Position numbers: made by a program. Source: a virus. From it: DNA of 26,733 bases. Shown here piece after piece: positions 3,001-6,000 of this stretch. The DNA lies in UHGV virus genome UHGV-0379735; one strand, 5' to 3'. Each line of letters begins with the position of its first letter. Within the stretch, counting starts at the first letter, position 1.

Positions 3001-6000
3001 GTGGTCGGTTCTGTTGAAATCCTCTATCTGGTGTTTAACGGTACGCTGCACTGGAGCGATTTCATCTGGCCCTTCGCACTACCTACTTTAGCGGGGAACA
3101 TCTGCGGCGGCACCTTTATCTTCGCGTTAATGAGTCATGCACAGATTCGTAACGACATGAGCAATAAGCGTAAAGCAGAAGCACGCCAAAAAGCAGAACG
3201 TGCGGAAAACATTAAGAAAAATTATAAAAACCCGGCATAAATGGCGAGGGTTTAAGCAATCGAGCGGCAGCGTACTTACCCCGCACTCCATTAGCGGGTA
3301 TACTCATGCCGCATTGTCCTCTTAGTTAAATGGATATAACGAGCCCCTCCTAAGGGCTAATTGCAGGTTCGATTCCTGCAGGGGACACCATTTATCAGTT
3401 CGCTCCCATCCGTACCAGTCCGCAAAATCCCCTGAATATCAAGCCTTCCGTAGATTCACCGTTCGTCATGGTTCGCGTCAGATCGTTGACAGCCGCACAC
3501 TATGACGGGTAAAAAGTGGATAAAATAATTTTACCCACCGGATTTTTACCCATGCTCACCGTTAAGCAGATTGAAGCAGCAAAGCCGAAAGAAAAACCAT
3601 ACCGCCTTCTCGATGGTAATGGCCTGTACCTTTATGTCCCTGTGTCAGGGAAAAAGGTATGGCAGCTTCGCTACAAGATTGACGGTAAGGAGAAAATCCT
3701 GACCGTAGGAAAATATCCGCTAATGACTTTGCAGGAGGCAAGAGATAAAGCATGGACCGCGAGGAAAGACATCTCGGTTGGCATCGATCCGGTAAAAGCG
3801 AAAAAGGCTTCGTCTAACAACAATTCCTTTAGCGCCATTTACAAGGAATGGTACGAGCACAAGAAGCAAGTCTGGTCAGTAGGATATGCGACTGAACTTG
3901 CCAAAATGTTTGATGACGACATTTTACCCATCATCGGCGGTCTTGAGATTCAGGATATTGAGCCGATGCAACTGCTGGAAGTAATCCGCAGATTTGAAGA
4001 TCGCGGTGCAATGGAGCGAGCCAACAAAGCCCGCAGAAGATGCGGCGAGGTTTTCCGTTACGCTATTGTCACTGGTAGGGCTAAATATAACCCGGCACCT
4101 GACCTTGCTGACGCCATGAAGGGATACCGCAAGAAGAACTTCCCGTTTCTTCCTGCAGACCAGATCCCGGCATTCAACAAAGCACTGGCAACATTTTCAG
4201 GAAGTATCGTATCGCTCATTGCGACCAAAGTCTTACGCTACACAGCCCTAAGAACGAAAGAGCTTCGTTCCATGCAATGGAAGAACGTCGATTTTGAAAA
4301 CAGGATTATCACCATCGACGCCAGTGTGATGAAGGGACGCAAGATTCATGTGGTCCCGATGTCGGACCAGGTGGTTGAACTTCTCACTACGCTAAGCTCA
4401 ATCACCAAACCAGTCTCAGAGTTTGTTTTTGCCGGTCGCAACGATAAGAAGAAACCAATCTGCGAGAACGCGGTGCTACTTGTGATCAAACAAATCGGCT
4501 ATGAGGGGCTGGAAAGCGGTCACGGATTCAGGCATGAATTCAGCACGATTATGAACGAGCACGAATGGCCTGCTGACGCTATTGAAGTGCAACTGGCACA
4601 TGCCAACAGCGGATCTGTGCGCGGGATTTACAACCATGCTCAGTATCTAGATAAGCGCAGAGAAATGATGCAGTGGTGGGCAGACTGGCTTGATGAGAAG
4701 GTGTGAAACGAATTATCATATCACATGAAGAATCGGTGACATTTCCGGATGCCTGTTTGCTCTAATTTTAACCATGCATTACCTCTAGTGTAATCATGCT
4801 AATTTTGAGATGAATGATAAATTTAGTGATCTACGTCACTCTGAAAACCCTACAAATAGATCTATGTTTACCAATATTATAGATTAGGGGGCCAGTCTAA
4901 TCCTGATGAGGTTTTATTGTGATAAAAGTTGGAATTTCTACTATGCGGATTTTCGGTCCGATTGCTGTAATTTCTGGTTTTGCTATCTCTAGTGGGTTAC
5001 TACCCATGCCTTCAAGCCTGTTCAGATATGCCATACTAACTGCAGATGTCATGGTTGTAGCATTCTGGATCCTTGATGAAATTAACAATTTTAAAAATAA
5101 CAAAACCAAAAATTAGTTTATTAATTTAAATGTGTGTTCTGTTAATTTGAGTGAAACAAATGAATAACAAGTATCTTTTTGCACAATATTTAAGAGGGTT
5201 GGCTGCACTATCTGTCATGTTTGCGCATTTCGGGACGTCTTTTTTCAATGCTAACCCAATGCTCTCATCTTTCGTTAATGTTCCGCAAGTTGAAGACCGT
5301 TCTTACCCATGGCTTGTACAATTAGTGCCGGTTGACTTTCCTGGATTTATGGCTGTATTCGGCGTTGCAATATTTTTCATGATCAGCGGATTTGTAATCC
5401 CGATGTCAATTGAAAGATATAGTTTTACCACCTTCTTCTCTAAGCGTTTTTTCAGATTATTCCCTACTTACGCATTTGTTTTTACTCTTAACCTACTTGT
5501 TGCTGGCATAGGGTTTGCCATCTACCAAGGCAAAGGGGTTGAGTATGTTTATAATTCTACAGACATAATTGGCTCGTATCTCATTGGATTAAATACTTAC
5601 ATTTCTGGAACTAGATGGCTAGACCCTGTCGCATGGACTCTGGGTGTGGAGATATTATTTTATGTAGTAGCAGCTATCTATATGAATATCTCTTTCGCAA
5701 TAAGAAAGGTTAAGGAAGTTAGTCTTTATGATGTCATTATACTGAGCGCTATTCTTGATGTAGCGGCAATTAAACTTTCTAAATATTTTGATATAATCAG
5801 CAGCACATTCCCTTCCATAAATCTTGGCAGTGTCATTAAAGCTGTTTATCTGATTTCTTTCATGCTTCTTGGGACGACTTTCTTCCTTCATGCTAAAAAG
5901 AGAATTGGCTTACATGCACTAATTTACACCATCCTTATCCAGTATTTTGGATTCGTTTATGTAAACATGCATATCCATCAAGCTGGCATGTATGTTGCAA

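What the first reader, a model, noticed from the sequence alone, without database searches (positions are those of the whole stretch)
3316..4706. argW tRNA with tRNA-adjacent integrase marks the left prophage junction (attL)
The tRNA-Arg(CCU) gene is followed 160 bp later by a co-oriented P4-type tyrosine integrase, after which GC content and gene content switch to phage. argW is a known integration site for Sf6/HK620-like phages and for the K-12 CPS-53 element. The right junction (attR) is not in the window, because the early region lies beyond the right edge.
Basis: partly seen in the sequence, partly recalled or inferred. Interest (0 to 1): 0.35.

Follow-up and report, generated by a model that had tools for sequence, protein, structure and literature searches.

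The report
Prophage left junction at argW tRNA
This is the well-studied left end (attL) of a P22/Sf6-like prophage inserted into the 3' end of the E. coli argW tRNA gene by an IntS integrase 99% identical to the K-12 enzyme, so it is correct but ordinary.

Summary
tRNA-Arg(CCU) lies at 3316-3390, identical to K-12 argW. A co-oriented 384-aa tyrosine integrase (ATG 3552 to stop 4706) follows 161 nt later.

1. The att core is the 16-nt CTGCAGGGGACACCAT at 3376-3391 (15 nt of argW plus one T), not 20-45 nt.
2. GC does not step at the junction: yfdC is 0.486 and int 0.485. Only the int-to-tailspike cargo and the tailspike are AT-rich.
3. The mosaic break at the int stop codon (~4703) is the normal int / O-antigen-modification gene / tailspike layout of Sf6-type phages. 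It is not a sign of two elements.

Int is 99.2% identical to K-12 IntS and 35% identical over its full length to P4 Int. Free phages Sf6 and HK620 become homologous to the window exactly at 3376. attL, attP, a relative's attR and 911 empty attB sites share only the core. The published TorI sites, IntS arm sites and intS promoter all map onto 3396-3551.

attR is not in the window: the core occurs once, and the window ends in lysis/late genes. I could not examine attR for this genome. In a close relative it lies after torI, next to dsdC.

Verdict: already known; low interest.

The parts
3316..3390 (+). argW, tRNA-Arg(CCU). Its last 15 nt are supplied by the phage-side core copy, so the tRNA stays intact in the lysogen.
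   Evidence: ARAGORN. Identical to K-12 argW. K-12 annotation.
3376..3391 (+). attL core (O), CTGCAGGGGACACCAT. This is the segment where strand exchange with attP took place. Bacterial DNA lies to its left and phage DNA to its right.
   Evidence: Homology to free phages Sf6, HK620, HK633, N7 and IME10 starts exactly at 3376. In the alignment of attL, two attP copies and attR, only this block is shared. It is the same 16-mer as the published KplE1 core (PMC2951348) and the annotated HK620/Sf6 attP core. It occurs once in the window.
3396..3423 (+). TorI (excisionase) binding block I1-I2: GTTCG at 3398-3402 and GTCCG at 3418-3422.
   Evidence: Mapped by coordinate offset from PMC2951348. The pentamers are present. 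None of the 6 differences from K-12 falls in them. Binding itself is inferred from K-12 experiments.
3459..3486 (+). TorI binding block I3-I5: GTTCG at 3461-3465, GTTCG at 3471-3475 and GATCG at 3481-3485. It abuts the intS -35 box.
   Evidence: Same mapping. In K-12 this block mediates TorI repression of PintS (PMC2951348).
3486..3515 (+). intS promoter inside attL: -35 TTGACA at 3486-3491 and a -10 overlapping arm site P'1 (GTAAAA/TAAAAA at about 3509-3515).
   Evidence: HK620 annotates a promoter at the homologous position, L004 1611-1660, which corresponds to window 3486-3535. PMC2951348 states that PintS overlaps attL and that P'1 overlaps the -10. The sequence was read. The exact -10 position is my inference.
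3507..3551 (.). Cluster of three IntS arm-type (P') sites with the motif GGGTAAAA: 3507-3514 (+), 3529-3536 (-) and 3544-3551 (-).
   Evidence: The motif occurs 6 times in the window against 0.55 expected, and three copies fall within 45 nt upstream of the int ATG. They coincide with HK620's annotated attP repeats. P' sites carry a conserved TAAA (PMC2951348).
3552..4706 (+). int (IntS), a 384-aa P4-family tyrosine integrase. Catalytic residues read as R234, H324, R327, H350 and Y360.
   Evidence: 99.2% identical to K-12 IntS, 99.0% to Sf6 Int, 98.4% to HK620 Int and 99.2% to CUS-3 Int. 35% identical to P4 Int over its full length, E=3e-78, with the catalytic residues aligned. Pfam domains. 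Motif positions.
3922..3929 (-). A further GGGTAAAA copy inside int. It corresponds to an attP repeat annotated in HK620.
   Evidence: HK620 repeat_region L004 2045-2055, which corresponds to window 3920-3930. Function not established.
4703..4706 (+). Right boundary of the conserved recombination module. Homology to Sf6, HK620, CUS-3 and K-12 stops at the last codon or stop codon of int, and Int is one residue shorter than in those phages.
4707..6314 (+). AT-rich cargo between int and the tailspike: an unannotated 65-aa hydrophobic ORF (4919-5116) and an Acyl_transf_3 O-acetyltransferase-like gene (5151-6314). It occupies the position of Sf6 oac.
   Evidence: Pfam PF01757. PHROG 3333 O-acetyltransferase. 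GC 0.34-0.38. Sf6 layout.
6338..8548 (-). Tailspike: a P22-type head-binding domain (aa 1-113) followed by a GDSL/SGNH esterase domain (aa ~180-360) and a C-terminal part.
   Evidence: Pfam. PDB sequence matches. PHROG tail spike families.
8962..23565 (-). Uninterrupted P22-like virion gene block: ejection proteins, needle, gp10, gp4, coat, scaffold, portal, TerL and TerS.
   Evidence: ORFs. 94-97% nucleotide identity to Sf101, CUS-3, Sf6 and phiKp_30. Synteny with annotated relatives.
24954..26115 (-). Lysis cassette: Rz/Rz1, endolysin and holin. The window then ends in late-region DNA, with the early region and attR beyond it.
   Evidence: 94.6% identical to the phage 434 lysis/late region through to position 26733.

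Best explanation
**What it is.** Window 3376-3551 is the attL site of a temperate P22-like (Lederbergvirus, Sf6/HK620/CUS-3/Kapi1-type) prophage integrated into the 3' end of the chromosomal argW gene. The gene at 3552-4706 is its integrase, IntS.

**Integration (inferred from the anatomy and from K-12/HK620 experiments).** IntS recombined the phage attP core CTGCAGGGGACACCAT with the identical last 15 nt (+T) of argW. The phage copy now completes the tRNA, so argW remains functional. The phage P' arm and int follow directly.

**Regulation of int (inferred by near-identity to K-12).** Because int reads away from the tRNA, its promoter (-35 at 3486-3491) sits inside attL. There it is overlapped by three IntS arm-type sites (GGGTAAAA) and flanked by five sites for the excisionase TorI. 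As shown for the 99%-identical K-12 module, int is therefore repressed by its own product and by TorI, and is not under the phage repressor or pL.

**Excision (expected, not seen here).** It would need TorI, encoded at the far right end of the prophage next to attR and dsdC, together with IntS and host factors.

**Shown here:** the tRNA, the core, the exact homology boundary, Int identity, presence of all mapped sites, empty sites in other strains, and the absence of attR from the window.

**Inferred:** protein binding, autoregulation, and that this prophage still has torI and attR.
For: - tRNA-Arg(CCU) at 3316-3390, identical to K-12 argW.
- Int is 99.2% identical to K-12 IntS and 98.4-99.2% to HK620, Sf6 and CUS-3 Int. 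It has the P4-family architecture and 35% full-length identity to P4 Int.
- Homology to free phage genomes begins exactly at 3376.
- The alignment of attL, HK620 and Sf6 attP, and the relative's attR gives BOP'/POP'/POB' with only the 16-mer shared.
- A synthetic yfdC-argW|core|dsdC junction is matched end to end at 99.9% in 911 of 5,426 complete E. coli genomes, which are empty attB sites.
- From core to ATG, attL is 173/179 identical to K-12 attL, and no difference falls in a mapped site.
- GGGTAAAA is enriched and clustered upstream of int.
- Literature: 16-nt core, PintS within attL, repression by IntS and TorI, module shared with HK620, Sf6 and CUS-3 (PMC2951348; PMC3509656). Kapi1 integrates between yfdC and dsdC with the same att (PMC8787464).
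- The same int-acyltransferase-tailspike block sits in a complete prophage ending torI-attR-dsdC in strain 23CRST047.
Against: - The right junction of this particular prophage is outside the window, so completeness and excision competence are unverified.
- No complete E. coli genome in the collection carries more than 70% of window 3300-26733 in one place, so no exact relative shows the whole element.
- The argW-dsdC region is known for decayed elements (PMC9659370).
- Protein binding and autoregulation were not tested here. They rest on 97-99% identity to the K-12 system.
Confidence: 0.95

Rival explanations
1. The integrase and attL belong to an older CPS-53/KplE1-like cryptic remnant, and the P22-like structural genes belong to a separate element that was joined to it by tandem insertion or by recombination within the shared int module. 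On this reading int and the virion genes are not one functional prophage.
For: There is a sharp homology break at the int stop codon, ~4703. AT-rich DNA follows it. The prophage is a mosaic with different best relatives for 138-8593, 8603-14224 and the right end. Module exchange among argW elements is plausible because they share about 97% identical int modules.
Against: There is no second core between int and the tailspike, even with 2 mismatches allowed. Free phage Sf6 has the same int / O-antigen acetylase / tailspike order in a single packaged genome, and Kapi1 likewise has a gene between tailspike and int (PMC8787464). 23CRST047 has the identical left block in one prophage with both junctions. 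All virion genes in the window are intact and tightly packed. Past recombinational mosaicism is normal for this phage group and would not make it two elements today.
Confidence: 0.04
2. The element is a decayed prophage. attL, int and the late genes survive, but the right part (early genes, torI, attR) has been deleted or rearranged, so this junction is a fossil that can no longer be resolved.
For: attR and torI cannot be seen. The argW-dsdC locus is a documented hotspot with elements of 20-50 kb and frequent decay (PMC9659370). K-12's own CPS-53 is such a remnant.
Against: Every gene from int to the holin is full length. The attL sites and Int catalytic residues are intact. The window runs off in contiguous late-region DNA 94.6% identical to phage 434. 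Relatives with the same left end are complete.
Confidence: 0.15
3. The true crossover is the neighbouring 16-mer TTGCAGGTTCGATTCC (3361-3376, the argW T-arm), as annotated for attL and attR in the CUS-3 GenBank record, rather than CTGCAGGGGACACCAT.
For: CP000711 marks this 16-mer as 'attL core' and 'attR core'. It is a perfect direct repeat in every E. coli lysogen examined, found once in argW and once upstream of torI.
Against: In free circular phages HK620 and Sf6 the T-arm 16-mer lies about 293 bp to the left of the other core, with xis (hkaC/gene 18) between them. A crossover at the T-arm 16-mer would place xis directly after argW. Instead the window has the P' arm and int there, and homology to the free phages starts at 3376, not 3361. 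K-12 (pawZ), the KplE1 experiments and Kapi1 junction sequencing all use the CTGCAGG... core. In other genera, attR shares only TGCAGGGGAC(A/G)CCAT with the tRNA.
Confidence: 0.01

Closest known systems
KplE1 / CPS-53 cryptic prophage of E. coli K-12 (argW-intS ... torI-pawZ-dsdC)
   Same: Identical argW and the same 16-nt core. attL is 173/179 identical from core to ATG. IntS is 99.2% identical. The position and orientation of int, the TorI pentamers, the arm sites and the promoter are all the same.
   Different: K-12 carries a 10.2-kb remnant with gtrABS-like genes after intS. Here a full set of P22-like virion and lysis genes follows, with an acyltransferase instead of gtr genes. Homology ends at the int stop codon.
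Shigella phage Sf6 (Lederbergvirus Sf6)
   Same: The attP core and P' arm are colinear with the window from 3376. Int is 99.0% identical. The gene order int / O-antigen acyltransferase / tailspike (opposite strand) / ejection and head genes is the same. Structural genes are about 95% identical.
   Different: The acyltransferase is a different gene: Sf6 oac is 333 aa, and the gene here is 387 aa with no nucleotide homology. The tailspike receptor-binding part also differs: an endorhamnosidase in Sf6, a GDSL/SGNH esterase-type domain here.
Coliphage HK620
   Same: The same recombination module, with the attP core, arm repeats and excision promoter annotated at positions that map onto window 3376-3552. 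Int is 98.4% identical.
   Different: Different tailspike and cargo. HK620 is a free phage genome, so it shows POP' rather than BOP'.
Prophage CUS-3 (E. coli K1 RS218) and phage Kapi1 (E. coli MP1)
   Same: Both are P22-like prophages at argW between yfdC and dsdC, with int next to yfdC/argW and a surface-polysaccharide modifying cargo between int and the tailspike. CUS-3 Int is 99.2% identical.
   Different: CUS-3 carries neuO and an endosialidase tailspike. Its GenBank att annotation uses the neighbouring T-arm 16-mer and so omits torI. Kapi1's authors report a 17-bp att, which is the same core plus one A.
Satellite phage P4 integrase and att (leuX)
   Same: The same integrase family: 35% identity over the full length, and the same three-domain architecture. 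The layout is also the same, with the attP core and arm repeats immediately upstream of int and integration into the 3' end of a tRNA gene.
   Different: A different tRNA target (leuX) and core, and a different excisionase. P4 is a satellite, not a P22-like phage. The window's Int scores below the curated cut-off of NCBIfam PRK09692 (237.9 against 434).

Membership tests
IntS/TorI argW recombination module (KplE1, HK620, Sf6, CUS-3, Kapi1) | Integrase orthologous to IntS | tested here: met
   382/385 aligned positions (99.2%) identical to K-12 IntS, and 98.4-99.2% to HK620, Sf6 and CUS-3 Int.
IntS/TorI argW recombination module (KplE1, HK620, Sf6, CUS-3, Kapi1) | 16-nt core CTGCAGGGGACACCAT at the 3' end of argW, with the phage homology boundary at its first base | tested here: met
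   Core at 3376-3391. Phage homology starts at 3376. Alignment of attL, attP and attR. Empty attB in 911 genomes. Published core.
IntS/TorI argW recombination module (KplE1, HK620, Sf6, CUS-3, Kapi1) | int co-oriented with and just downstream of the tRNA, so that its promoter, the IntS arm sites and five TorI sites lie within attL | tested here: met
   161-nt gap. The pentamers I1-I5, the -35 box and three GGGTAAAA sites are all present at the mapped positions. 173/179 identity to K-12 attL. Occupancy by the proteins was not tested.
IntS/TorI argW recombination module (KplE1, HK620, Sf6, CUS-3, Kapi1) | RDF gene torI and attR (second core copy) at the opposite end, next to dsdC | not testable with these tools
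   This lies beyond the right edge: the core occurs once in the window. The source contig was not recovered. The feature is present in relative 23CRST047 and in K-12.
P4-family tyrosine integrases | N-terminal arm-binding domain (DUF4102/Arm-DNA-bind_3), a SAM-like central domain and a C-terminal catalytic domain | tested here: met
   PF13356, PF22022/PF14659 and PF00589, all above the gathering scores.
P4-family tyrosine integrases | Full-length homology to P4 Int with the catalytic R, H-x-x-R, H and Y residues conserved | tested here: met
   BLASTP gives 35% identity, E=3e-78, over residues 2-381. R234, H324, R327, H350 and Y360 align with identical residues in P4 Int.
P4-family tyrosine integrases | Score above the curated cut-off of NCBIfam PRK09692 (integrase domain model) | tested here: not met
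   237.9 bits against a cut-off of 434. This model is narrower than the family. The shortfall does not affect the architecture or homology tests.
P22-like temperate phages (Lederbergvirus) | P22-type tailspike head-binding domain and the colinear P22-like ejection, needle, gp10, gp4, coat, scaffold, portal and terminase genes | tested here: met
   PF09008, E=1e-63. PDB matches to P22 and Sf6 tailspike N-termini. 94-97% nucleotide identity to Sf101, CUS-3, Sf6 and others. Synteny.
P22-like temperate phages (Lederbergvirus) | Lambdoid early, immunity and replication region | not testable with these tools
   Outside the window. The window ends upstream of the holin in late-region DNA.

The most novel reading that the evidence does not exclude
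TorI-type excisionases recognise a pentamer (GTTCG) that is also the heart of the tRNA T-loop.

- argW's own T-loop (GTTCG at 3367-3371, 5 nt left of the core) lies on the same strand as sites I1-I5 and roughly in helical phase with them. It could be a sixth, host-encoded RDF site in attL.
- The invariant T-loop mimic GGTTCGATT(C/T)C lies 18-25 nt upstream of xis. It is found in E. coli, Enterobacter, Citrobacter, Serratia, Pantoea and Edwardsiella elements despite diverged flanks. It could be an operator through which the RDF controls its own promoter, which has not been characterised.

On this reading the module would have co-opted tRNA T-loop sequence as its directionality signal. The mimic lies at the prophage's right end, outside this window.
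Probability: 0.15. Interest if true: 0.4.

Novelty: already known. Interest (0 to 1): 0.1.

Why it matters
The finding matters little in itself. It correctly delimits the left end of a prophage at one of the best-characterised integration hotspots of E. coli, using a recombination module whose core, protein sites and regulation have been mapped experimentally in K-12.

Its practical value is for annotation.
- The prophage starts at 3376.
- The repeat that marks attR is only 16 nt.
- A second perfect 16-nt argW repeat upstream of torI can mislead repeat-based delimitation, as in the CUS-3 record.

The prophage itself is a new mosaic. It pairs an esterase-type tailspike with an acyltransferase cargo gene, which may interest people working on O-antigen serotype conversion.

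Tried and rejected
1. **25-nt argW 3' probe.** Allowing up to 3 mismatches, it gave a single hit in the window. It also gave no hit in the relative's attR region, where attR does exist. I abandoned it as too long and redid the search with the 16-nt core.
2. **Recovering the source contig to read its attR.** An exact-protein look-up of the 135-aa ORF at 24488-24895 returned only unrelated lambdoid prophages; that ORF is a widespread cargo gene. Further hops are limited to window-encoded proteins with 10-kb flanks. These cannot reach an attR expected about 16 kb past the edge, so I did not pursue it.
3. **Complete E. coli genomes.** None holds more than 70% of window 3300-26733 in one place.
4. 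**T-arm 16-mer as the true core.** This is the CUS-3 annotation. I rejected it on the order of sites in free phage genomes.
5. **T-arm 16-mer as a simple relic or conversion copy of the host tRNA.** This is not supported. In other genera only GGTTCGATT is kept, and the stem-side flank does not match argW.
6. **Literature.** The King et al. 2007 CUS-3 paper (PMC1951898) is not held. The T-arm 16-mer occurs in no searchable paper in this context.
7. **Defence-system and NCBIfam scans of the cargo ORFs.** Nothing was found.
8. **Generic sigma-70 scan.** It did not list the published intS promoter, because that promoter's -10 lacks the final T.
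Full report
**1. Observation**

ARAGORN finds a single tRNA in the window, tRNA-Arg(CCU), at 3316-3390 on the + strand. It is identical to K-12 argW.

The next ORF on the same strand is listed from a GTG at 3516. All homologues start at the ATG at 3552, which gives a 384-aa protein ending at 4706 and a 161-nt gap after the tRNA.

Pfam assigns Arm-DNA-bind_3, Phage_int_M/SAM_3 and Phage_integrase domains.

The flanking genes are a yfdF-like ORF, mlaA and yfdC. This is the standard E. coli chromosomal context of argW.

**2. What it is**

The integrase is IntS.
- It is 99.2% identical to K-12 IntS, 99.0% to Sf6 Int, 98.4% to HK620 Int and 99.2% to CUS-3 Int.
- It is a P4-family enzyme: 35% identity to P4 Int over the full length (E=3e-78), with catalytic R234, H324, R327, H350 and Y360 aligned.
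- It falls below the curated cut-off of the narrower NCBIfam model PRK09692.

The junction can be placed to the base.
- Megablast against phage genomes shows that free phages (Sf6, HK620, HK633, N7, IME10 and others) become homologous to the window at 3376. They stop at 4702-4703.
- I aligned the window's attL, HK620 and Sf6 attP, and the attL and attR of a close relative (strain 23CRST047). The result is the textbook BOP'/POP'/POB' pattern, in which only CTGCAGGGGACACCAT (3376-3391) is common to all.
- I joined the window's yfdC-argW side to the relative's dsdC side at the core to make a synthetic empty site. It is matched end to end at 99.9% in 911 of 5,426 complete E. coli genomes.
- The same 16-mer is the published KplE1 core (PMC2951348), the annotated HK620 and Sf6 attP core, and, plus one A, the Kapi1 att (PMC8787464).
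- K-12's annotation starts CPS-53 15 nt before the end of argW and marks the 15-nt attR copy as pawZ.

**3. Anatomy of attL and likely mechanism**

From core to ATG, the window is 173/179 identical to K-12 attL. I used the coordinates given in PMC2951348 and the offset from the intS ATG to map the five TorI sites:
- I1: GTTCG, 3398-3402
- I2: GTCCG, 3418-3422
- I3: GTTCG, 3461-3465
- I4: GTTCG, 3471-3475
- I5: GATCG, 3481-3485, directly abutting the -35 TTGACA (3486-3491)

None of the six differences from K-12 touches these sites.

Three GGGTAAAA arm-type sites cluster at 3507-3551, one of them over the -10. The motif occurs 6 times in the window against 0.55 expected, and the cluster coincides with HK620's annotated attP repeats.

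The mechanism is taken from the K-12 and HK620 work; it is inferred here rather than tested.
- IntS exchanged strands within the core, and the phage copy restores the tRNA 3' end.
- Because int points away from the tRNA, its promoter lies inside attL. It is repressed by IntS and TorI and is uncoupled from xis.
- Excision needs TorI from the far end of the prophage (PMC2951348, PMC3509656).
- P4 has the same layout, with core and arm repeats directly upstream of int.

**4. One prophage or two elements?**

There is a sharp homology break at the int stop codon. It is followed by AT-rich cargo (GC 0.34-0.38) and a tailspike at GC 0.41-0.43. This is the normal architecture of the group:
- Sf6 has int-oac-tailspike in one genome.
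- CUS-3 has neuO in that position.
- Kapi1 has a gene between tailspike and int.
- Strain 23CRST047 carries the same block (98.9% identical over window 138-8593) in a complete prophage that ends torI-attR-dsdC.

No second core lies between int and the tailspike. The virion genes at 8962-23565 are intact and 94-97% identical to Sf101, CUS-3 and Sf6.

The prophage is a mosaic. Different relatives match 138-8593, 8603-14224 and the right end, and no complete E. coli genome holds more than 70% of it in one place.

**5. attR**

The core occurs once in the window even with 2 mismatches allowed. The window ends with TerS, cargo, Rz/Rz1, endolysin and holin, and then late-region DNA 94.6% identical to phage 434.

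The proposed probe of 20-45 nt would fail, however: in the relative, a 25-nt probe with 3 mismatches finds nothing, although attR is there. I could not recover the source contig, so the integrity of this prophage's right end is untested.

**6. GC claim**

There is no compositional step at the junction. yfdC is 0.486, int 0.485 and the structural genes 0.49-0.51, and the chromosomal yfdF-like gene is itself 0.36. The switch to phage is visible in gene content, not in GC.

**7. Comparison with known systems, and novelty**

Every defining feature of the IntS/TorI argW module that can be tested in the window is met. Only torI and attR are untestable. The finding is already known biology, and the prophage is a new mosaic member of a known group.

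**8. Side observation followed up**

A second perfect 16-mer from argW, TTGCAGGTTCGATTCC (3361-3376, overlapping the core by one base), recurs about 19 nt upstream of the torI/xis start in K-12, HK620, Sf6, CUS-3 and 23CRST047.
- The CUS-3 GenBank record uses it as the att core and so omits torI. The order of sites in free phages rules that reading out.
- I examined 24 TorI-relative loci from other Enterobacterales. GGTTCGATT(C/T)C is kept 18-25 nt upstream of xis in 12 of the 22 loci that include upstream sequence. The flanks have diverged, and the stem-side flank does not follow argW.
- The element contains the TorI pentamer GTTCG. It may be an operator in the torI promoter, which was described as uncharacterised in 2010. 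This is speculative, and the element lies outside the window.

In the same loci, the only block shared with the tRNA at attR is TGCAGGGGAC(A/G)CCAT. It is preceded by a conserved T-loop-like TTCGATGT.

Noticed in passing
window 3361-3376; L008 11276-11291 (K-12); L004 1192-1207 (HK620); L005 3192-3207 (Sf6); L007 2193-2208 (CUS-3); L002 11373-11388 (minus strand): A second perfect 16-nt piece of argW (TTGCAGGTTCGATTCC, the T-arm) recurs about 19 nt upstream of the torI/xis ATG in every E. coli member. It lies about 293 bp left of the true core, inside HK620's annotated cII-dependent promoter. Together with the core it tiles the last 31 nt of argW with a 1-nt overlap. The CUS-3 GenBank record annotates this repeat as the attL/attR core and therefore leaves out torI.
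   Followed up: yes
L021, L022, L023, L024, L026, L029, L030, L031, L039 (about 1965-1985 in each); alignment A2: In TorI relatives of 74-85% identity from Enterobacter, Citrobacter, Serratia, Pantoea and Edwardsiella, GGTTCGATT(C/T)C is kept 18-25 nt upstream of xis, although the flanks have diverged (mean column identity 55%). The element contains the TorI recognition pentamer GTTCG and may be an operator or promoter element. It is absent from 10 other loci.
   Followed up: partly
window 3367-3371: The argW T-loop itself carries GTTCG on the same strand as TorI sites I1-I5. Successive spacings are 31, 20, 43, 10 and 10 nt, which is close to helical phase. The published maps do not list it as a TorI site. 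The clustering is only modestly significant: 4 exact GTTCG copies within 109 nt, against 49 in the whole window.
   Followed up: partly
window 6338-8548 (-) and 5151-6314 (+): The tailspike combines the P22 head-binding domain with a GDSL/SGNH esterase domain. Residues ~100-725 match recently solved tail-fibre structures 9d84_A, 9lna_A and 9d80_D. It sits back to back with an Acyl_transf_3 O-acetyltransferase-like cargo gene. A deacetylase-type receptor-binding protein next to an acyltransferase conversion gene is a suggestive pairing for O-antigen acetylation. The same pair occurs in strains 23CRST047 and 23CRST049.
   Followed up: partly
window 4919-5116 (+): A 65-aa hydrophobic ORF lies in the AT-rich spacer just upstream of the acyltransferase. 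It has no Pfam, PHROG, NCBIfam or PADLOC match and is not annotated in the relative. It could be a small membrane partner, or it could be spurious.
   Followed up: no
window 23593-24117 (+), 24182-24373 (-), 24488-24895 (-): An AT-rich cargo patch (GC 0.40) lies between TerS and the lysis genes. Its three ORFs match only PHROGs of unknown function (5483, 6581, 585), and none hits a defence family. The 135-aa protein is found with identical sequence in many unrelated lambdoid prophages at the same lysis-terminase position.
   Followed up: partly
window 8962-11730 (-): A 922-aa ejection protein with an N-terminal SLT lytic transglycosylase domain occupies the position of P22 gp16. It resembles the Sf101-type 'transglycosylase/DNA injection' protein. 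It differs from the gp16-family protein at this position in 23CRST047.
   Followed up: no
window 1-137 and 124-1077: The yfdF-like gene at the left edge has in-frame stops upstream of codon 124. Its first 137 nt do not match the 23CRST047 allele but do match other strains, several of which have IS1 nearby. This looks like a variable or disrupted 5' end. GC is 0.36.
   Followed up: no
alignment A3 (attR/attP of 11 elements); HK620 L004 about 1478-1516: Left of the core, all elements keep TTCGATGT(N), which is the tRNA T-loop with TCC replaced by GT(N). About 16 nt further left they keep CCCCTGC, the inverted complement of the core's GCAGGGG. They also keep a GGGTAAAA arm site at the 3' end of torI. 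These conserved P-arm features may define core-type IntS binding or the boundary of strand exchange.
   Followed up: no
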